Source: a phage. From it: a stretch of DNA of 64,000 bases. The translations under genes and the position numbers were made by a program. Positions 57,362 through 64,000 of this stretch are shown one piece after another. The DNA lies in sequence record PX104378.1; one strand, 5' to 3'. Under the pieces are notes generated by a model. That model saw only the letters and a program-made list of their open reading frames with translations. It had not been told where the DNA came from and did no database searches. Each line of letters opens with the position of its first letter. Within the stretch, counting starts at the first letter, position 1.

Positions 57362-57685
57362 TCACTGTTTTTTGCTCATATTATATGCTTCTAGTGACAG
57401 GTCGTCAACCATCGAAGAAATCTCATTAAGAAAATCTTTTTCCATATATGCCATCAAAGAGTTTGATTCTTTGATATGTTGTATAGCAGTCTCACTTAGA
57501 ACTCCTTCCCCTAAAAATAATGCAACAAGAACACTATCTGGGATATGAATCTCATCATAATCATCGATTCCTTTCTGTACTCGAATAGTGGCTTTTGTTG
57601 TGTTGTGTGTCATGTCTAATTTTGAGAAAAGTTCTACGTTCGGATACTTGTTACTTTTCTTATGCAGTGTCGCGTTCAATAACAT
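57362..57685 (-). CDS. Hypothetical early protein
   Basis: Start trimmed to ATG (MLLNATL; table start is TTG) with SD GGAGGA; promoter cassette upstream. Confidence 0.55.
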   Translation of the reverse strand: MLLNATLHKKSNKYPNVELFSKLDMTHNTTKATIRVQKGIDDYDEIHIPDSVLVALFLGEGVLSETAIQHIKESNSLMAYMEKDFLNEISSMVDDLSLEAYNMSKKQ

Positions 57686-57715: not shown

Positions 57716-57744
57716 TATTATACAATACTATGTTACTTTGTCAA
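57716..57744 (-). promoter_or_regulatory. Early promoter cassette P13
   Basis: TTGACA with TAATAC/ATAATA-like -10 upstream of 57362..57685. Confidence 0.45.
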
Positions 57745-58323
57745 CTCTTTTTCAAAAGATTTTACGATATACATGATAGTGCTCAATTCGGACGGTGCTA
57801 CTGTTTCTGTGTAGCCATCCGGCATATCTTTTTTTGAGATATAGGAAGTTTTACCTTTCATCGCTTCCTTGATCTTGTTCTCTAATTCTAAGATCTTTTG
57901 ACCGTCTTGTAAAGTCAATTCATAAAAGATCTCATGGTCGAATTTAGAAACACGAGATTGGTCTTTCATTCGTGCTTTAGTTGTTAAGTTAGTTATTCCA
58001 AATTTAACACCAACAAAATTATTATTGTTGATTAGTCTCTGGATATACAGAGTTCCAATTTTTAATGTATTGTATCCATAGTGGGCACATTTAGGGCAAC
58101 GTCTTCCTTTCTGAAACTCCATTATTGGTTGAGTGTATGTATGCCCTTCGCTACATGTCAAATTTAATTTTGTCTTATTACCTTTCCATTCTCCAATGAA
58201 TCCATTGAAGGTTATATTTTCTTTTTCAAAGACTGGTTTCAATCTTTCATAATATTCAATTGGCGATATAGAACGATTGCTTTTTCTTACCCATTCAATC
58301 TCATGTGCTTGACGTACTAACAT
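57733..58323 (-). CDS. Hypothetical protein with zinc-finger-like CxxC...CPKC and possible degenerate GIY-YIG-like segment
   Basis: Start trimmed to ATG (MLVRQ) with SD GGAGGA because the longer table start lies inside the promoter -10/-35; KIGTLYIQRL..FVGVKFGITN. Confidence 0.5.
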   Translation of the reverse strand: MLVRQAHEIEWVRKSNRSISPIEYYERLKPVFEKENITFNGFIGEWKGNKTKLNLTCSEGHTYTQPIMEFQKGRRCPKCAHYGYNTLKIGTLYIQRLINNNNFVGVKFGITNLTTKARMKDQSRVSKFDHEIFYELTLQDGQKILELENKIKEAMKGKTSYISKKDMPDGYTETVAPSELSTIMYIVKSFEKELTK

Positions 58324-58353
58324 AATTTTATCCTCCGTTGTTTCGATGAGTTC

Positions 58354-58381
58354 ATTATACATTACCTCGCCAACATGTCAA
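58354..58381 (-). promoter_or_regulatory. Early promoter cassette P14 (TTGACA-N16-TATAAT)
   Basis: Upstream of 57733..58323; overlaps the longer table ORF start, which was therefore rejected. Confidence 0.5.
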
Positions 58382-58443: not shown

Positions 58444-59391
58444 TTACATCGCTAACAGAGAGTCCAGGTCATCCAGATCAGAAGCGGAGGAAGTACCGCC
58501 ACCCAGGTCCAGAGATGCCATCAGATCATCAGCGGAAGAATCGGATGTTGTGCTAGTTGCGGTAGTACCAGCGTCGAATGCATTCATCTGTGCATCGAAA
58601 TCGTCAAGCTGGTTGTTAATCGCTGCCGCAGCACCAGAAGCCGCAGCACCAGCTACCAGGCTTACACCTTTAACTTTCTTAAATTTAGCATCCAGTTCCT
58701 CGAAAGATTTAAACTGGTCTTTTGCTACGATAACATCAATATCTACCATGTTTTCGAACAGATATTTCTGGAATGCTTCATCTTCGATGTTCGGAATCGC
58801 TGATTGCTGCATGAAACGTGAATCATCGTAGTTCAGGAATTTATCTACTTTCTTAGCTTTCAGAAGGAAGTTAGCGCCTTCGAACGGACATACGATGTTT
58901 ACAGGTTTTTCGCCCAATTCCGTGTTTACGTTGCTCATTGCCAGAATCTTATCATAAATTTTCTTACCGAAGCGGTATTTAAATACTTTACCTTCGTTTT
59001 CCGGCGCTTTCGGATCTTTCATTACCAGAATGTTTGCGAAGTAAGAAGATTTACGCTTAACATCTTGATATTCTTTATTGTTGGTGTTGTACAGATCATT
59101 TTCGCTAATGTATTTGCACACAGGGCAAGAATCAAAATCACCGTGGGTGCTAGGGCAGTTTTCCCAATAATACTTACCATTTACTTTGAAAGAATGGTTT
59201 ACAAGGTTGATGATCGGTAAACCGTCTTCGGTGCGTGCTGGAAGAAAACGAATCACCGCTTCACCGTTACCCGCCGCGTCAGTTTTAATCTTCCACTCTT
59301 TCGGATCTTCTTTGGAGAAGCCGTTGCTACCTTTCAGTGCTGCCAGTTGAGCTTGCAGTTTGGAAGAATCTTGACGACGAAAAATGTTCAT
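58444..59391 (-). CDS. 32: Single-stranded DNA-binding protein gp32
   Basis: Start set at MNIF with SD AAGAGG; extensive identity to T4 gp32 as recalled ([31 protein letters not shown]); acidic C-terminus; terminator downstream. Confidence 0.95.
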
Positions 59392-59457
59392 AATTATACC
59401 TCTTTTATACATTAACTATTAATTTGCTAGACTATTATACAGATTTAAATTTACTTG
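59392..59457 (-). promoter_or_regulatory. AU-rich 5' leader of gene 32 (candidate translational operator)
   Basis: 66-bp strongly A/T-rich region between gp59 stop and gp32 ATG, ending in SD AAGAGG. Confidence 0.4.
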
Positions 59458-60138
59458 TCAACTATTTGTTTCGGCTTTTAATTGAGATATTTCTTTACAC
59501 TCTTTAACTACTTTAACAAATAATGCTCTTGCTTTTGCGGCGTCAATAACAAGTAGTTTCTTGTACGCCTTCATTTTAACACTATAAGTTTGCCAAATCA
59601 AGTCTTTGGCTACCTTGTCGTGTTCGTCGATTATATTTAGAAAGCTATCTAACAACATAAACGACTCAAACGATATAATCCGATTTTGCAGTAGTTTAAA
59701 GATACCGCTAGTTTCGGTTGCGGGATTGTATGTAATTAGCTCTTTAAGAGTAACCCCGCGTTTCTCTGAGAAGTATACCAGACTTTTAATGTCATCGTCA
59801 AATCGTGTTGCAGCATCAGTGATCTTACCGATATACTCCATGTAAAATCCGTATGCGTCAACATCGGTGATTTCACCTACCCATGCATCGGTATTAGCTA
59901 CCAGATTGCTTAGGAATAGGAAGTATAATTCTCTTAGATTGTACTTTTCCGCTAATTTTGCGAAATAATACTTATCTCTGCGTTTATTGAATGCGGCATC
60001 AGACAACCGCATCCTCCAATTGTATTTTACGCAATCATAACGCCCGTTCATATGAGCTTTCATCATGCAATATAACATATACACAGATTTAGCATTAATT
60101 CGCATATCTGGATCTGGAGGAAGACGGTTTCTGATCAT
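59458..60138 (-). CDS. 59: Helicase loader gp59
   Basis: 226 aa; colinear with T4 gp59 as recalled (KSVY.LY.M.K.HMNG.YD..KYNW.MR.SDAA..KRRDKY.F.KL.EKY; IISFE.F.LLDSFLNIID). Confidence 0.92.
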   Translation of the reverse strand: MIRNRLPPDPDMRINAKSVYMLYCMMKAHMNGRYDCVKYNWRMRLSDAAFNKRRDKYYFAKLAEKYNLRELYFLFLSNLVANTDAWVGEITDVDAYGFYMEYIGKITDAATRFDDDIKSLVYFSEKRGVTLKELITYNPATETSGIFKLLQNRIISFESFMLLDSFLNIIDEHDKVAKDLIWQTYSVKMKAYKKLLVIDAAKARALFVKVVKECKEISQLKAETNS

Positions 60139-60147
60139 ACATACCCC

Positions 60148-60417
60148 TTAAATATCGAGAGTGTTGGTCGGTTCGTCGATCACTCCCTTCCTGAGCGTTC
60201 TATTCACTATACATTCTTGTGTGATCTTGTCAATAATGGACACCGGAATATACTTCTGATAGTGACCATATTCTATAGAGTTTTCCTCTACAAACTGAGT
60301 TGTCGCTTCAAGATAAGTCAATCCCTCTTCAACAACCAGTTTTTCGATTGCAAGACCGTTTGCTGTTTTATTCGCGGCTTTTACCGCATGTTCATTAAGC
60401 ATTGAACACCCGATCAT
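60148..60417 (-). CDS. 33: Late transcription co-activator gp33-like
   Basis: C-terminal YLEATT.F.EENSI and position after gp59 as in T4; start uncertain (alternative ATG at 60402). Confidence 0.75.
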   Translation of the reverse strand: MIGCSMLNEHAVKAANKTANGLAIEKLVVEEGLTYLEATTQFVEENSIEYGHYQKYIPVSIIDKITQECIVNRTLRKGVIDEPTNTLDI

Positions 60418-60670
60418 AGAGTTCTACCGCTTCATCGCGTTCTGCTTCGAAGGTTTCTCGCTGTTGCTGGTGATACAGTTTAAACAGAATGCCCCACATT
60501 TTACCATCTACGCCTAATTCTTCTTTAGCACGCTGTTTGATCTCTTTGATCTTATCGCCATATGCTTCTTGAATGGTTTTCTGATCGCTGGCTTCTTTAA
60601 TCAGTTGTGCCAGGGTATTTCCGTGCACTGCTTCGTCAAATACTACTTTTTCTTTTTTCTGTTCAGTCAT
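60395..60670 (-). CDS. dsbA: Small protein at dsbA position (dsDNA-binding protein DsbA-like)
   Basis: 91 aa, charged helical; assignment by size and position only. Confidence 0.5.
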   Translation of the reverse strand: MTEQKKEKVVFDEAVHGNTLAQLIKEASDQKTIQEAYGDKIKEIKQRAKEELGVDGKMWGILFKLYHQQQRETFEAERDEAVELYDRVFNA

Positions 60671-60674
60671 AATA

Positions 60675-61274
60675 TTAACCCTCTTTAGTCATTAATTGAA
60701 AACCACGTTCAGCTTTTGAGATTTCGCTAGGACTTAAATCGTCACCCACATATTCTAGCATCATTTCTCGGATAATGTCAAGTGCTTTTTCATCACCTGA
60801 TTTTAACTCGAACTCAAGTTCATAATGAGCAGTGTCGCCCAATCCTTCGCCTACTTTGCCATAATAGAAAGTGTCTTTGCACATTTCCACTATACCGCAA
60901 CCCATATCTAGAGTCAATGACTTGCGATATGTCATTACTTGCATTATTGTAGTGATATAGTCGGAGTTTACCCCTAGACTATCAATAAAATGGACGAACT
61001 CATCCCAATTTGAAAATGTCATTTCCTCGCGGTTGAATAGTCCAGATTCATTATCACCCATTTTGACCATGATCTCTGATTTTCGACAGTCAAGTCGTGC
61101 ATAAATTCCTTTTTGACGTAGCGCATGATCTTCGGTATCATAATAAAATTCGTGTTTTAGAATGTTATCACGGTCTACGAGATTGTACCCGTCATACATT
61201 GCTACCCACAAATCACAGATGGTTTCGACGCCAATTTGTGAGTGTGCATAGTATTTTAATTCAAGTTCTTTCAT
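60675..61274 (-). CDS. CYTH-like (triphosphate tunnel metalloenzyme-like) protein
   Basis: 199 aa; N-terminal ELELKY (ExExK) and C-terminal YELEFEL (ExExE) acidic-strand motifs typical of CYTH domains; motif-based only. Confidence 0.5.
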   Translation of the reverse strand: MKELELKYYAHSQIGVETICDLWVAMYDGYNLVDRDNILKHEFYYDTEDHALRQKGIYARLDCRKSEIMVKMGDNESGLFNREEMTFSNWDEFVHFIDSLGVNSDYITTIMQVMTYRKSLTLDMGCGIVEMCKDTFYYGKVGEGLGDTAHYELEFELKSGDEKALDIIREMMLEYVGDDLSPSEISKAERGFQLMTKEG

Positions 61275-61284
61275 GTGTCAACCC

Positions 61285-62232
61285 TTAGAACTCACCAATT
61301 TTCTGCAACATTTTAACTAACGCATTTGTTACAAAATAGTTATAAATTTTACCGCGTGGTGCTGGTTTAGATTTTTCCCATGACTCCAGAATCTGATTCT
61401 GAATATTGTCTGGGATGTAATCGAAATCAATAAGTTCGCGGTTTTCATCAAATCGACGTGCTTCTTCCTCTGTCATCAAAGACTTTGGATCTTCGGCATC
61501 GAAGATTTGCTCTAACCATTTGGTCGCAACTGGTTTAGCTCGTTCACCTTCCAATCGAGAGATAATAAAATCACTACGGCACTTGACAGAAGCTACACCG
61601 TCTTTTGCGTCACCCTTAACACATTTTACCATAAGGTCTTTGTACGGGCTACCGTATTTGCATTTCTTCCATGCTTTTTGTACTGGTGCCCACTGCTTCA
61701 CATTTTTGTATTTGTGCAACTGTGTGTAGTCACCATCGCCGGAGTTGATCAGCACCTGACGACCTTCTACAGAAAACTTTTTAGTTAGCACAGCGATTAT
61801 ATCATCCGCTTCAACTTTGTCAACCTTAATAACGTGATAAGGCATGTTCTCTTTAAACTCTTCGGTGATCTTATTGATCGCAGCAAAGATCATCTCCCAA
61901 TCACGCGGATCTGCGTCTCGTTTTTCCTTACGGTTGCGTTTATAGTAAGGGGCGATATCACGTCGCCAGTAACCTTTGCTTGAATCAAAAGCAAGTACCG
62001 TAATAGGGTATTGCTCTTTGAATTTTGTCATATTATAACGCATGGTGTCAAGAATAAGATGACGGATCATGCCTTCACTAATAGGATCTTCCGGTTTAAA
62101 GGTATGCGAGATAGTAGCAATCATAAGCTGCGACATATCAATCAAATGCACACCTTCCGGTAGTTTATCTTCTGGGTCATCGAAGAAATCATTAAGTGTA
62201 GCGGTAGTTTTTGTAAACGGGTTATACGTCAT
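61285..62232 (-). CDS. rnh: RNase H (5'-3' exonuclease/flap endonuclease)
   Basis: 315 aa vs T4 RNase H 305 aa; blocks YMPY.V...DK.EADD.IAVL.KKFS.EG, DGD.TQLHKY.NVKQW.P, VKVRSDF, IDFDYIPDNI match T4 as recalled. Confidence 0.93.
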   Translation of the reverse strand: MTYNPFTKTTATLNDFFDDPEDKLPEGVHLIDMSQLMIATISHTFKPEDPISEGMIRHLILDTMRYNMTKFKEQYPITVLAFDSSKGYWRRDIAPYYKRNRKEKRDADPRDWEMIFAAINKITEEFKENMPYHVIKVDKVEADDIIAVLTKKFSVEGRQVLINSGDGDYTQLHKYKNVKQWAPVQKAWKKCKYGSPYKDLMVKCVKGDAKDGVASVKCRSDFIISRLEGERAKPVATKWLEQIFDAEDPKSLMTEEEARRFDENRELIDFDYIPDNIQNQILESWEKSKPAPRGKIYNYFVTNALVKMLQKIGEF

Positions 62233-62234
62233 AA

Positions 62235-62420
62235 TTAAGTTCTCTCCACTCTCACAACAACATATTCGCCAAACGAGTTAGATACTTCACGATCATAACC
62301 GTACTTCTCCATAACTCGCAGAATTGCATTGTTTAATTCGGCACGGAAATAATTGTAATCCTTATCTGGGATTCTGTCAACTATCCATTTTGCACCGTCT
62401 GACAAATCAACTTTAACCAT
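62235..62420 (-). CDS. Small hypothetical protein
   Basis: 61 aa ORF immediately downstream of rnh. Confidence 0.45.
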   Translation of the reverse strand: MVKVDLSDGAKWIVDRIPDKDYNYFRAELNNAILRVMEKYGYDREVSNSFGEYVVVRVERT

Positions 62421-62458
62421 AATATATCATCCTCTTTTGTTTCTATCAAGCCTTATTT

Positions 62459-62466
62459 TATAAATA
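62459..62466 (+). promoter_or_regulatory. Late promoter (TATAAATA) for gp34
   Basis: Exact TATAAATA about 30 bp upstream of gp34 ATG. Confidence 0.6.
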
Positions 62467-62494
62467 TGAACATACTATAAAAGGAGACCCAATA

Positions 62495-64000
62495 ATGGCA
62501 GATTTTTCTCAACATTTCAAGGCCACATTTGGCTTTGACGCTGGTAATGAAAAGGTCGTCAATGTAGCATTGGCTGATAAGAATGTCAACACCGATGCGG
62601 TCAACGTTGAATTTTTCAATTACCATAATGGTATTACTCAGTATGACACAACTCGCGGTTATGATCAATACGGAACTACAATCTATCAAAACCGTCCGTA
62701 TTATGCAAAAGAAGATATCACAAAGCCAGCAGGTGATTTTGACCCGACTAAATGGCAAGCACTGCGCACCGATCCACGTTGGGATTATATTGCAGCAACT
62801 TCCGGTGATACTCCTTTAAAGTCTGGTGATTATATCGCAGCAGATGGTCAATTTGCAAACTTGACTTTCTCCATGCCAAACAAACCAGCAGAGGGAGACA
62901 CTATAACAGTAAAAGATATCGGTGGCAAGTGTGGTGTTAATGAATTATCGTTCTTGAGTTCAGGTCATGAGTTTTATCATAACGGTAATGTGTATAACCG
63001 CAAATGGTATTGCACTACCCCGTATGCAATGAACTATTTCATCTTTGTTCGTAATCGTTGGCATGTTTATCAGACAGGAACAGAGCCACGCGGTGTGTAC
63101 GCACAGCCAGCGATTGATGCTATTCAAATGCAGAATGGTGATCAGGTATTTCGTCGTAGTTCGTTGGGTAATATTACCTTAGTGCTTCCTAAGTTTGCCA
63201 ACAATGGCGACATGATCCAGACCACAGACCTTGACGGGTTAACCGCAACCAACCACGTTACGGTTAAAGTTCATGAGCACGCAGAAGAACAATCAATTGG
63301 CACGTTCGGATTAAAAGAGATTATCGGTAAGCGTAGCGGTCATGGTGTATTCATCTTTGATAAGCCTGAAAACTTATGGCGTGTGTGGGATGGTGATCAG
63401 TCTGTTCGTCTTAAACCGATCATCGATGACACTCGCTTGCAACCTAATAGTTATGTTGCTGTATTTGGTGATCATGATGTTACTCTGACGCTACCGACCA
63501 ATGTCGAGCCGGGTGATCGTATTCAAGTTTCTATGCAGTATATGCACGGAAACCAGAATTGCCGTATTATCACCGCCGCAGAGGATACAAAAATCCTTAT
63601 GCAGAAAAATATGGTTCAGTTTCCTAAGCGTAGCGAGTACCCATTCAACGGGACCGAGACATGGAAGGAAGTGTCTGAATTGTCGTTCAATGCGGCTAGT
63701 GATTATGTACCTTATCTGGAGTTCTCTTATTCAGAAGGTGATGATGGTAAAAAACACTGGTTGGTAGCACATGCTCACCCGATTGTAGAACGAGTAGATC
63801 CGACTCGTAAAGCGCGTGTTGGTGTAATTGCACTGGCTACCCAGACTGAAACGAATAAAAACCATGAAGAGAATCCTAGCGACGAAGTTGCAGTAACACC
63901 AAAAATGCTGGCTAATAAAACCGCCAACGAAACTCGACGCGGTATTGCTCGCATTGCGACTCAGGAGGAAACGCATCAAGATACTGGTTCCAGCTTCCTG
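62495..64000 (+). CDS. 34: Long tail fiber proximal subunit gp34 (5' partial, runs off window end)
   Basis: Not in ORF table because no stop in window; SD AAGGAG then ATG; translation MADFSQHFKATFGFDAGNEKVVNVALADKNVNTDAVNVEF... colinear with T4 gp34 N-terminus as recalled, ending TETRRGIARIATQEE; TATAAATA upstream. Confidence 0.9.
   Translation, partial: MADFSQHFKATFGFDAGNEKVVNVALADKNVNTDAVNVEFFNYHNGITQYDTTRGYDQYGTTIYQNRPYYAKEDITKPAGDFDPTKWQALRTDPRWDYIAATSGDTPLKSGDYIAADGQFANLTFSMPNKPAEGDTITVKDIGGKCGVNELSFLSSGHEFYHNGNVYNRKWYCTTPYAMNYFIFVRNRWHVYQTGTEPRGVYAQPAIDAIQMQNGDQVFRRSSLGNITLVLPKFANNGDMIQTTDLDGLTATNHVTVKVHEHAEEQSIGTFGLKEIIGKRSGHGVFIFDKPENLWRVWDGDQSVRLKPIIDDTRLQPNSYVAVFGDHDVTLTLPTNVEPGDRIQVSMQYMHGNQNCRIITAAEDTKILMQKNMVQFPKRSEYPFNGTETWKEVSELSFNAASDYVPYLEFSYSEGDDGKKHWLVAHAHPIVERVDPTRKARVGVIALATQTETNKNHEENPSDEVAVTPKMLANKTANETRRGIARIATQEETHQDTGSSFL

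What the first reader, a model, noticed from the sequence alone, without database searches (positions are those of the whole stretch)
60675..61274. CYTH-like protein inserted between dsbA and rnh
In T4, rnh directly follows dsbA. Here a 199-aa ORF intervenes, with an N-terminal ExExK motif (ELELKY) and a C-terminal ExExE motif (YELEFEL), the acidic strand pattern of CYTH triphosphate-tunnel enzymes. It is not a canonical member of this replication/repair cluster.
Basis: partly seen in the sequence, partly recalled or inferred. Interest (0 to 1): 0.45.

Follow-up and report, generated by a model that had tools for sequence, protein, structure and literature searches.

The report
Phage triphosphate-tunnel enzyme with altered pocket
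The extra gene between rnh and dsbA in this RB49-like phage does encode a CYTH (triphosphate-tunnel) enzyme, as public annotation already says, but its substrate pocket differs from all bacterial relatives, its outer surface varies greatly between near-identical phages, and its substrate is untested.

Summary
A 199-aa ORF (60675-61274, minus strand) lies between rnh and dsbA, which abut each other in T6 and JS98. ELELK and ELEFE align with YgiF's metal-binding glutamates.

This is not a new identification. RB49's record notes similarity to ygiF, and Nolan et al. 2006 list the orthologue as a CYTH domain. No functional study was found.

Three new points emerged. First, all four phage lineages examined have lost the second Arg of the xRxR phosphate-binding strand (Y-x-R-x-D here; R in 38 of 39 bacterial relatives) and have more aromatic tunnel-facing residues. 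Published motif rules exclude a class IV adenylate cyclase, and there is no CHAD domain. Second, codons ~16-155 form a diversity island (pi 0.21-0.28, flanks ~0.02-0.04) made of old alleles swapped by recombination (omega 0.2-0.45). Third, within the island the tunnel-facing residues are conserved and the exterior is not.

Most likely it is an active two-metal triphosphohydrolase, probably acting on an organic triphosphate rather than PPPi. Its biological role is unknown. Interest is moderate.

The parts
60675..61274 (-). 199-aa stand-alone CYTH/TTM gene (phrog_14893; orthologue of RB49p245 / RB49ORF244c)
   Evidence: ORF; Pfam PF01928 above the gathering score; phrog_14893 7e-134; YgiF profile match E 6e-13; AF2 model and Foldseek
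61254..61268 (-). ExExK motif, E3-L-E5-L-K7 (E3 and E5 are metal-2 ligands; K7 contacts substrate)
   Evidence: Translation; aligns with YgiF E4/E6/K8; invariant in 46 of 46 family members
61089..61103 (-). Y58-A-R60-L-D62 strand: catalytic Arg kept, aromatic at the ThTPase Trp53 position, second Arg replaced by Asp
   Evidence: Translation; R60 = YgiF R56; D62 in 7/7 phage lineages aligned vs R in 38/39 bacterial relatives; x-R-D exclusive to the phage clade among 192 proteins; Y58 column = SaTTM A54 = ThTPase W53
61023..61064 (-). K71, R82 and E84: tunnel-lining basic and acidic residues
   Evidence: K71 = YgiF K69; all invariant in 46/46
60924..60926 (-). R117, tunnel-lining arginine
   Evidence: Invariant in 46/46; aligns with the Arg of YgiF 'FYREKW'
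60807..60821 (-). ExExE strand, E152-L-E154-F-E156 (E154 is the metal-1 ligand, E156 a metal-2 ligand)
   Evidence: Translation; aligns with YgiF E158/E160/E162; invariant
60687..60719 (-). C-terminal plug helix, S186-K187-A-E-R190-G191...
   Evidence: DSSP helix 187-196 in the model; S186, K187 and G191 invariant and R190 nearly invariant; aligns with YgiF 'SKAARGY'
60809..61228 (-). Diversity island (gene nt ~47-466, codons ~16-155)
   Evidence: pi 0.21-0.28 vs ~0.02-0.04 in most flanking windows; 42-45% aa identity to the Skers and P0042 alleles inside 96-100% identical flanks
60675..60808 (-). Conserved 3' tail (codons 156-199), at backbone-level DNA identity; holds a sigma70-like site and the dsbA ribosome-binding site
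   Evidence: 96-100% nt identity; dS no more than about 0.4 within Krischvirus and usually under 0.25; TTGACA-18-TAGAAT at 60781-60752; GAGG just before the dsbA ATG
61796..61823 (-). Predicted early promoter inside rnh (TTGACA-16-TATAAT, 12/12, TGn), 549 nt upstream of the CYTH ATG
   Evidence: conserved in all Krischvirus loci and in the P0043 lineage; absent from T6 and JS98. Predicted only.
61253..61281 (-). Sigma70-like site straddling the CYTH start (-35 in the rnh-CYTH spacer, -10 within codons L6-K7-Y8)
   Evidence: at 11/12 in the Krischvirus, P0034 and P0045 loci and 10/12 in P0043. Function untested; the -10 may be a by-product of the ELKY codons.
61285..62232 (-). Upstream neighbour rnh (T4-type RNase H / 5'-3' exonuclease)
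   Evidence: Pfam RNaseH_C and 5_3_exonuc_N
60395..60670 (-). Downstream neighbour dsbA
   Evidence: Pfam Phage_DsbA 5.4e-22

Best explanation
The gene encodes a catalytically competent, stand-alone triphosphate tunnel metalloenzyme. It descends from the YgiF-type bacterial tunnel domain but has no CHAD domain.

Mechanism (inferred from homology). A triphosphate-bearing substrate binds inside the eight-stranded beta-barrel. Metal 1 (Mg2+ or Mn2+) bridges the triphosphate to E154. Metal 2, held by E3, E5 and E156, activates a water molecule for in-line attack on the terminal phosphate. R60 acts as the proton donor. K7, K71, R82, R117, K187 and R190 hold the phosphates, and the C-terminal helix plugs one end of the tunnel.

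Substrate (inferred). The pocket differs from every bacterial relative examined. The second Arg of xRxR is Asp, an aromatic residue sits at the ThTPase Trp position, and several further tunnel-facing changes add aromatics and negative charge. The preferred substrate is therefore probably an organic triphosphate (a nucleotide, thiamine triphosphate or a 5'-ppp end) rather than free PPPi. I put this at about 0.5 given that the enzyme is active.

Context (inferred). The gene is probably transcribed early together with dsbA-33-59. It is an accessory gene: one isolate has it disrupted. Its alleles are exchanged by recombination whose breakpoints fall near the two motif-coding ends.
For: Shown:
- Pfam CYTH above threshold.
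- Full-length profile match to the YgiF tunnel domain, E 6e-13, rising to 5e-79 with a broader profile.
- Confident AF2 model with the expected strand and plug-helix layout; Foldseek top hit is YgiF and the matches just below it are other TTMs.
- Every residue shown by mutagenesis or crystallography to bind metals or act in catalysis in YgiF (E4, E6, E160, E162, R56, K69) has an invariant counterpart across 46 family members.
- omega is 0.2-0.45 across alleles.
- Inside the island, tunnel-facing strand positions are 0.73 identical with 21/38 invariant, against 0.43 and 0/39 for outward-facing ones (p < 5e-5). Selection therefore acts on the tunnel.
- Pocket remodelling: D62, Y58, F80, T115, F136, Y138 and H150 are fixed in the phage lineages, against R, A/G, H, F, G, I/V and I/L in bacteria. 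Tunnel-facing aromatics number 7-9 against 4.7 +/- 1.1, and net charge is -2 to -7 against -3.2 +/- 1.7, with no such shift in outward-facing columns.
- AtTTM3 tolerates loss of the equivalent second Arg.
- Early-promoter-like sites lie on the coding strand.
- A frameshifted copy exists in phage G2494.
Against: - No biochemical or genetic data exist for any member of this clade.
- The second Arg contacts the beta/gamma phosphates in ThTPase, so Asp there could weaken triphosphate binding rather than retune it.
- The aromatic and charge shifts are modest and overlap the bacterial range.
- YgiF's own physiological role is unknown, so homology gives chemistry, not biology.
- The promoters are consensus matches only. 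Two of them overlap conserved coding motifs and could be by-products.
- The G2494 frameshift could be a sequencing error.
Confidence: 0.7

Rival explanations
1. It is simply a CHAD-less copy of YgiF: a specific inorganic triphosphatase or short-chain polyphosphatase that removes PPPi or mobilises phosphate during infection.
For: YgiF is the closest solved and characterised relative, and YgiF is a specific PPPase. The nearest bacterial stand-alone relatives (P0044, P0046) lie next to PhoU and PHO4 phosphate-transport genes. Some GenBank records already call the gene 'inorganic triphosphatase'. Loss of the equivalent second Arg had little effect on the PPPase activity of AtTTM3.
Against: The R-to-D change at 62 and the added tunnel-facing acidic and aromatic residues are fixed in all phage lineages and absent from 146 bacterial relatives. 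That is unexpected for a substrate carrying five negative charges. E. coli already hydrolyses PPPi mainly with pyrophosphatase, and free PPPi is barely detectable, so the benefit to a phage is unclear.
Confidence: 0.25
2. It is a counter-defence or host-takeover enzyme that destroys a triphosphate-bearing signalling molecule, such as an alarmone, thiamine triphosphate or an immune-signal nucleotide. On this reading the exterior hypervariability reflects an arms race with a host sensor or inhibitor.
For: It is an accessory gene restricted to a few phage lineages. It evolves much faster than its neighbours in every lineage (31-58% identity against 70-100% for the flanks). The exterior is diversified while the tunnel is frozen. 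Expression is probably early. The remodelled pocket suits an organic moiety. In E. coli, ThTP accumulates on amino-acid starvation and no microbial ThTPase is known. The Y-x-R motif partly matches the ThTPase W/YxRxR signature.
Against: There is no PADLOC or literature link. omega is below 1 for all pairs and dS is elevated too, so old alleles plus recombination explain the island without positive selection. The last Arg of the ThTPase motif is missing. No candidate host partner was identified.
Confidence: 0.15
3. It is an RNA 5'-triphosphatase. It would act on primer 5' ends (helping RNase H remove pppRNA primers) or on mRNA 5' ends (priming them for decay).
For: The TTM superfamily includes Cet1 and viral capping RNA triphosphatases, which appear among the fold matches. 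The gene lies 10 nt downstream of rnh inside the replication cluster.
Against: Capping-type TTMs are distant matches (TM about 0.44, E about 1e-4) compared with YgiF. T6, JS98 and more than 1,300 other dsbA-bearing phages manage without the gene. The C-terminal plug helix closes one end of the tunnel. Adjacency in T-even genomes is weak evidence of shared function.
Confidence: 0.08
4. It is a class IV (CyaB-type) adenylate cyclase that makes cAMP, as several GenBank records label it.
For: 'Adenylate cyclase' labels in phages KMB43, AV108 and PHB13. CyaB structures are among the fold matches.
Against: All three published AC-IV determinants fail. The protein starts MKELELK, so the HF motif four residues before ExExK cannot exist. 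The ExE strand keeps its second Glu (E156), whereas AC-IV has Ala. The gatekeeper Arg (R60) is retained, whereas AC-IV has a small residue. YgiF has no detectable cyclase activity. The CyaB profile match is only E 0.76.
Confidence: 0.03
5. It is a catalytically dead binding protein, or the ORF is maintained mainly as a carrier of promoters for dsbA-33-59.
For: Several strong sigma70-like sites lie inside the ORF and are retained across divergent alleles. The tail has backbone-level DNA identity. The gene is disrupted in G2494.
Against: All metal ligands and the catalytic Arg are invariant through lineages down to 31% identity. Conservation follows tunnel-facing parity, not DNA motifs. omega is below 0.5.
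Confidence: 0.04

Closest known systems
E. coli YgiF, N-terminal TTM domain (PDB 5A60/5A61; inorganic triphosphatase; CDD cd07756 CYTH-like_Pase_CHAD)
   Same: Closest relative by sequence profile (E 6e-13, or 5e-79 with the broader profile) and by structure (TM 0.76). It shares the same strand order and plug helix. All metal ligands (E4/E6/E160/E162), the catalytic R56 and K69 are conserved.
   Different: The phage protein has no linker or CHAD domain (199 aa against 433). It is about 21% identical. G54-x-R56-x-R58 becomes Y58-x-R60-x-D62, with further tunnel-facing changes. It is encoded by a phage and is probably expressed early.
Bacterial stand-alone ~200-aa YgiF-type TTMs (e.g. P0044 and P0046 from metagenomes)
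   Same: Same single-domain architecture and length, and the same catalytic set. They are the nearest non-phage relatives in the exhaustive search.
   Different: They keep small-x-R-x-R and the bacterial pocket residues (H80, F115, G136, I/V138, I150). They lie beside PhoU and PHO4 phosphate-transport genes. They are 24-28% identical to the phage protein.
Mammalian 25-kDa thiamine triphosphatase (PDB 5A64, 3BHD)
   Same: TTM fold, and an aromatic residue at the position that stacks on the thiazole ring (W53 in ThTPase, Y58 here) followed by the catalytic Arg.
   Different: The final Arg of W/YxRxR is Asp here. The sequence match is very weak (E 0.14-1.1). No microbial ThTPase of this family is known.
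Class IV adenylate cyclase CyaB (PDB 2FJT, 3N0Y)
   Same: CYTH superfamily fold and the ExExK motif.
   Different: The phage protein lacks the HF motif, keeps ExE instead of ExA, and keeps the gatekeeper Arg. The 'adenylate cyclase' labels in some records are therefore not supported.
Other viral TTMs: Cet1-type capping triphosphatases of giant viruses, and CYTH proteins of Aeromonas phages (Aeh1ORF004c, 65.2, D3)
   Same: Triphosphate-tunnel fold in a viral genome.
   Different: They are distant (TM 0.34-0.56, 9-17% identity), sit in different genomic positions and have different architectures. They do not belong to the rnh-CYTH-dsbA clade.

Membership tests
CYTH / triphosphate tunnel metalloenzyme superfamily (PF01928) | N-terminal ExExK motif on strand beta-1 | tested here: met
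   E3-L-E5-L-K7; aligns with YgiF E4/E6/K8; invariant in 46/46 members
CYTH / triphosphate tunnel metalloenzyme superfamily (PF01928) | Eight-stranded antiparallel beta-barrel tunnel closed by a C-terminal plug helix | tested here: met
   AF2 model pLDDT 92, eight long strands plus helix 187-196; the leading Foldseek PDB hits are TTM/CYTH enzymes and the rest share the TTM fold. This is a predicted structure, not a solved one.
CYTH / triphosphate tunnel metalloenzyme superfamily (PF01928) | ExE on the late strand (first Glu binds metal 1, second binds metal 2) | tested here: met
   E154 and E156 align with YgiF E160 and E162; invariant
CYTH / triphosphate tunnel metalloenzyme superfamily (PF01928) | Profile score above the curated threshold | tested here: met
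   28.8 bits against a gathering score of 23.2, E 1.3e-6
CYTH / triphosphate tunnel metalloenzyme superfamily (PF01928) | Divalent-metal-dependent cleavage of a triphosphate substrate | not testable with these tools
   Needs an enzyme assay; none is published for this clade
YgiF-type PPPase (SSN cluster 1 of Vogt 2021; cd07756 CYTH-like_Pase_CHAD) | Closest sequence and structure relationship to the YgiF tunnel domain | tested here: met
   Top PDB hit by profile and by Foldseek; the G5211 record cites cd07756
YgiF-type PPPase (SSN cluster 1 of Vogt 2021; cd07756 CYTH-like_Pase_CHAD) | C-terminal CHAD domain | tested here: not met
   The protein ends 3 residues after the plug helix. Pfam finds no CHAD, and the match to YgiF stops at about residue 202 of 435. 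Many bacterial relatives are also CHAD-less.
YgiF-type PPPase (SSN cluster 1 of Vogt 2021; cd07756 CYTH-like_Pase_CHAD) | small-x-R-x-R phosphate-binding strand | tested here: not met
   Y58-A-R60-L-D62; bacterial relatives have A/G/S-x-R-x-R in 144 of 146
YgiF-type PPPase (SSN cluster 1 of Vogt 2021; cd07756 CYTH-like_Pase_CHAD) | Specificity for inorganic triphosphate | not testable with these tools
   Needs an assay
Class IV adenylate cyclase (CyaB) | HF motif four residues before ExExK (HFxxxxExExK) | tested here: not met
   Only two residues (M1, K2) precede E3
Class IV adenylate cyclase (CyaB) | Second Glu of ExE replaced by Ala | tested here: not met
   E156 is retained and invariant
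Class IV adenylate cyclase (CyaB) | First Arg of xRxR replaced by a small residue | tested here: not met
   R60 is retained and invariant
Thiamine triphosphatase (ThTPase) | W/YxRxR motif (aromatic stacks on the thiazole; both Arg bind the beta/gamma phosphates) | tested here: inconclusive
   The aromatic (Y58) and the first Arg (R60) are present, but the last Arg is Asp (D62). Y58 is Val in the P0045 lineage and Ile in P0058.
Cet1-like RNA triphosphatase | Closest structural or sequence affinity to capping-enzyme TTMs | tested here: not met
   Mimivirus and vaccinia capping TTMs match only at TM about 0.43-0.44, E about 1e-4, far behind YgiF

The most novel reading that the evidence does not exclude
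The phage tunnel enzyme is a counter-defence or host-takeover hydrolase for a triphosphate-bearing small-molecule signal. Candidates are thiamine triphosphate (which would make it the first microbial or viral ThTPase), an alarmone, or a modified-nucleotide immune signal. On this reading, the frozen tunnel combined with a hypervariable exterior, maintained as many old alleles in near-identical phage backbones, records an arms race with a host protein that recognises or inhibits it.
Probability: 0.15. Interest if true: 0.75.

Novelty: new variant of a known kind. Interest (0 to 1): 0.36.

Why it matters
As flagged, the finding is a correct re-discovery of a domain assignment that has been public since 2003-2006, so on its own it is ordinary. 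What is worth following up is that nobody has determined what this enzyme does, and three features make that testable. First, the phage lineages share a pocket signature (x-R-D/N plus extra aromatics) that separates them cleanly from 146 bacterial relatives, which points to a different substrate. Second, the 'adenylate cyclase' and 'inorganic triphosphatase' labels now spreading through phage records are, respectively, contradicted and unproven. Third, the gene is a ten-fold diversity peak inside one of the most conserved clusters of the genome, with conservation confined to the tunnel lining. That pattern is common in proteins at the phage-host interface. A defined substrate would add a new activity to the TTM superfamily and might reveal a host metabolite or signal that T-even-like phages need to remove early in infection.

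Tried and rejected
- NCBIfam and PADLOC scans of the protein found no family, even at E up to 10.
- A single-sequence phmmer search of the PDB gave a marginal hit to the TriTu immunity protein (7zhm_C, E 0.055, residues 21-100) and to cytochrome c-552. Neither was reproduced by the family profile, so I treat them as chance.
- An Rfam scan of 59000-63500 on both strands at E up to 1 found nothing, so no known RNA element lies under the ORF.
- The T4 late-promoter core TATAAATA has no copy on the coding strand anywhere near the gene. The nearest is at 62459 on the plus strand, and the window-wide count is not above chance.
- Composition: GC is 0.38 and GC3 is 0.35 against 0.41 for the window. 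That gives no sign of recent acquisition.
- The density of sigma70-like sites looked special at first (26 found against 11.4 +/- 3.4 expected). Window-wide, sites scoring 11/12 or better number 27 on the minus strand and 1 on the plus strand, and other 2-kb bins hold 2-3. The region is therefore typical early-gene territory, not an outlier.
- Positive selection as the cause of the island is rejected for pairwise data. omega is 0.06-0.56 for every pair and dS is elevated or saturated.
- IMG/VR yielded only 3 further loci, all Krischvirus-like.
The taxa of the nearest bacterial relatives therefore remain unidentified.
- Literature searches for phage TTM/CYTH function, anti-phage links, and RB49 plus ygiF gave only the 2006 domain listing and one general remark on jumbo phages.
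Full report
**1.

The ORF listing finds a 199-aa ATG-initiated ORF at 60675..61274 on the minus strand. Translation gives ELELK at residues 3-7 and ELEFE at 152-156. The ORF lies 10 nt downstream of rnh (61285..62232; Pfam RNaseH_C 8.7e-40) and 4 nt upstream of dsbA (60395..60670; Phage_DsbA 5.4e-22). After dsbA come gene 33, gene 59 and gene 32.

The window is a Krischvirus (RB49/Phi1-like), 96-97% identical in DNA to Phi1, ECD7 and others. In T6 and JS98, rnh is followed directly by dsbA. dsbA homologues occur in 1,401 phage records, but this gene occurs in only 59, all of them Krischvirus. It is therefore a real, lineage-restricted extra gene in a conserved cluster.

**2. It is a CYTH / triphosphate-tunnel protein**

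- Pfam CYTH scores 28.8 bits against a gathering score of 23.2.
- A 15-sequence family profile matches the N-terminal tunnel domain of E. coli YgiF (5A60) over its whole length, E 6e-13. A broader 46-sequence profile gives 5e-79.
- AlphaFold2 gives pLDDT 92.1 and pTM 0.85, with eight long strands and a C-terminal helix.
- Foldseek against the PDB ranks YgiF first (E 4e-12, TM 0.76). Just below it come other TTMs: plant TTM3, ThTPase, SaTTM and CyaB. Mediator Med18/20 and capping triphosphatases follow further down.

**3. The motifs fall on catalytic positions**

Martinez et al. 2015 (PMC4641920) show the following for YgiF. E160 completes metal site 1. E4, E6 and E162 form metal site 2, which positions the attacking water. 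R56 is the likely proton donor. K69 helps bind substrate. The E6A, E160A and R56A mutants are impaired.

In the alignment (PDB chain numbering is natural +2), these residues correspond to phage E154, E3, E5, E156, R60 and K71. All of them, together with K7, R82, E84, R117, S186, K187 and G191, are invariant in 46 phage and bacterial family members.

**4. The identification is not new**

- The RB49 RefSeq entry annotates the orthologue (RB49p245) as 'similar to ... HI1598, ygiF'.
- Nolan et al. 2006 (PMC1524935) list RB49ORF244c as 'CYTH domain'.
- The G5211 record cites CDD cd07756.
- A few records label the gene 'inorganic triphosphatase' or 'adenylate cyclase', but most say 'hypothetical protein'.
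- PHROGs files it as phrog_14893, function unknown.
- Four literature searches found no functional work on this clade or on any phage TTM.

**5. Which kind of TTM it is**

Vogt et al. 2021 (PMC8233210) give three discriminating motifs.

- *Class IV adenylate cyclases* need HF four residues before ExExK, have Ala in place of the second Glu of ExE, and have a small residue in place of the first Arg of xRxR. The phage protein begins MKELELK and keeps both E156 and R60, so all three criteria fail. The 'adenylate cyclase' labels are not supported.
- *ThTPases* carry W/YxRxR.
- *Plain TTMs* carry small-xRxR.

Here the strand reads Y58-A-R60-L-D62. Column equivalence rests on published numbering. The profile's Ala aligns with the Ala of SaTTM 'EALRLR'. 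Vogt et al. name that residue, A54, as the counterpart of ThTPase W53. Phage Y58 occupies the same column.

So the phage enzyme has the ThTPase-like aromatic residue, keeps the catalytic Arg, and replaces the second, phosphate-binding Arg with Asp.

**6. The altered pocket is a clade signature**

The exhaustive HMMER scan found 3,397 relatives at E below 1e-3 but only 3 representatives below 1e-30. Among the 192 proteins collected, x-R-D occurs in every phage-clade member that covers the region and in none of the 146 non-phage relatives. Of those 146, all but two have x-R-R.

One of the two exceptions, P0058 (I-R-N), turned out to be a further uncultured T4-like phage with the same CYTH-dsbA-33 arrangement. 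P0043 and P0045 are two more such lineages. Four deep phage lineages therefore share both the genomic slot and the loss of the second Arg.

Further changes fixed in the phage lineages (bacterial majority in brackets): F80 (H), T86 (E/N), V113 (T), T115 (F), C132 (A), F136 (G), Y138 (I/V), H150 (I/L/V), E42 (N/S). All of these have the same strand parity as the catalytic residues. From that I infer that they face the tunnel.

Counted over the 46 inward-parity columns:

| | Phage proteins | Bacterial relatives |
|---|---|---|
| Aromatic + His residues | 7-9 | 4.7 +/- 1.1 |
| Net charge | -2 to -7 | -3.2 +/- 1.7 |

Outward-facing columns show no such shift. The effect is modest and overlaps the bacterial range. 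Its direction argues against a preference for the highly anionic PPPi and for a substrate with an organic, possibly cationic or aromatic, moiety.

**7. A diversity island with a frozen tunnel**

Across 14 Krischvirus-type loci, nucleotide diversity is 0.21-0.28 over gene nt ~47-466. In most flanking windows from orf61 to gene 59 it is about 0.02-0.04. The exceptions are a small shoulder in the 3' part of rnh (0.10-0.12) and two isolated windows in and beyond gene 59 (0.08 and 0.15).

Against phage Skers, rnh and dsbA are 96-98% identical in DNA, but codons 1-150 of this gene are 48-64% identical. The last 49 codons return to 96-99%.

At least six allele classes exist:

- window/Phi1/ECD7
- RB49/JSE/GEC-3S
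- JK32/Brandy
- P0034
- Skers
- P0042

Island protein identity falls to 40-45% between the most distant classes.

dS in the island is 0.23-0.8 between the closer classes and saturated against Skers and P0042. In the tail, dS is usually below 0.25 and at most about 0.4 within Krischvirus. omega is 0.06-0.56 for every pair with measurable dS. So these are old alleles moved by recombination, under purifying selection. The data do not show a burst of positive selection. The breakpoints fall near the two motif-coding ends.

In the sister lineages the same imbalance holds. The CYTH protein is 48%, 36% and 31% identical, while DsbA and gp33 are 70-83% identical.

Within the island, conservation follows structure. 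Inward-parity strand positions average 0.73 pairwise identity with 21 of 38 invariant. Outward-parity positions average 0.43 with 0 of 39 invariant (permutation p < 5e-5). The tunnel, including the phage-specific residues, is what selection preserves.

**8. Expression and dispensability**

Sigma70-consensus sites scoring 11/12 or better number 27 on the minus strand and 1 on the plus strand of the window. One of them coincides with the early promoter annotated before gene 32 in RB49, so these sites mark early transcription units.

Sites conserved in the CYTH-bearing lineages and absent from T6 and JS98:

- inside rnh, 12/12 with TGn, 549 nt upstream of the CYTH start;
- across the CYTH start codon;
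- at +357 within the gene;
- in the tail, 111 nt before dsbA.

They suggest early co-transcription with dsbA-33-59, and they may add DNA-level constraint on the tail. They are predictions only, and two overlap conserved coding motifs. The density of such sites here is not unusual for this genome.

Phage G2494 has a 1-nt deletion inside codons 58-60 that splits the ORF. If that deletion is real, the gene is dispensable in the laboratory.

Base composition matches the genome, and no Rfam family matches the region.

**9. Verdict**

*Shown:* the fold, the family, the conserved catalytic set, the exclusion of the cyclase label, the absence of CHAD, the clade-specific x-R-D/N signature, the diversity island, and the contrast between tunnel and exterior conservation.

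*Inferred:* two-metal hydrolysis of a terminal phosphate (confidence about 0.7-0.8), an organic rather than inorganic triphosphate substrate (about 0.5 given activity), early expression, and accessory status.

*Unknown:* the substrate and the biological role.

The finding as flagged is a correct but already public annotation. The pocket variant and the evolutionary pattern make it a reasonable, moderately interesting target for a substrate screen.

Noticed in passing
window 62235-62420 (-): A 61-aa ORF (phrog_3594, function unknown) lies between tail-fibre gene 34 and rnh in every Krischvirus locus examined. T6 and JS98 have only a ~105-nt gap there, so it is a second lineage-specific insertion in this cluster.
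   Followed up: partly
window 1-64000; sites near 57408, 57744, 58381, 59461, 60233, 60781, 61281, 61823, 62380 (-): Near-perfect sigma70 consensus sites (11/12 or better) are extremely strand-biased: 27 on the minus strand against 1 on the plus strand. Many lie inside coding sequence. One is a 12/12 site inside rnh whose -10 overlaps the codons for the conserved D-D-I-I segment.
   Followed up: partly
window 57733-58362 (-); L001 5802-6398; L017 4298-4894; L018 1100-1348 and 4298-4894: Homing-endonuclease-type genes come and go around the cluster. The window has a CapR/HNH-like gene (phrog_681) after gene 32. Skers, Makalu_002 and FL20 have an HNH gene between genes 59 and 32 that the window lacks, and FL20 has another before orf61. 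Such elements could drive the local gene conversion that homogenises the flanks.
   Followed up: no
L026 (phage G2494, MK327935) 601-1196: The CYTH orthologue is split into two ORFs by a 1-nt deletion inside the Y58-A59-R60 codons, with a substitution next to it. This is either a natural knock-out or a sequencing error.
   Followed up: partly
L010 2858-4187; L021 350-2981: The nearest bacterial stand-alone relatives (P0044, P0046) are divergently transcribed from a PhoU-like / PHO4 phosphate-transporter pair and are followed by an RsmD-like methyltransferase. This context fits a role in phosphate metabolism. The organisms were not identified.
   Followed up: partly
L006, L020, L025 (metagenomic contigs): Three uncultured T4-like lineages carry the gene in the same slot. 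Their DsbA and gp33 are 70-83% identical to the window's, but their CYTH is only 31-48% identical. In L025 a 156-nt spacer separates CYTH from dsbA, compared with 4 nt here.
   Followed up: partly
window 61355-61475 (-), the 3' part of rnh (gene positions -190 to -71 relative to the CYTH ATG): There is a smaller diversity shoulder (pi 0.10-0.12) in the C-terminal part of rnh. A highly conserved 60-nt stretch separates it from the CYTH island. It may mark additional recombination breakpoints.
   Followed up: no
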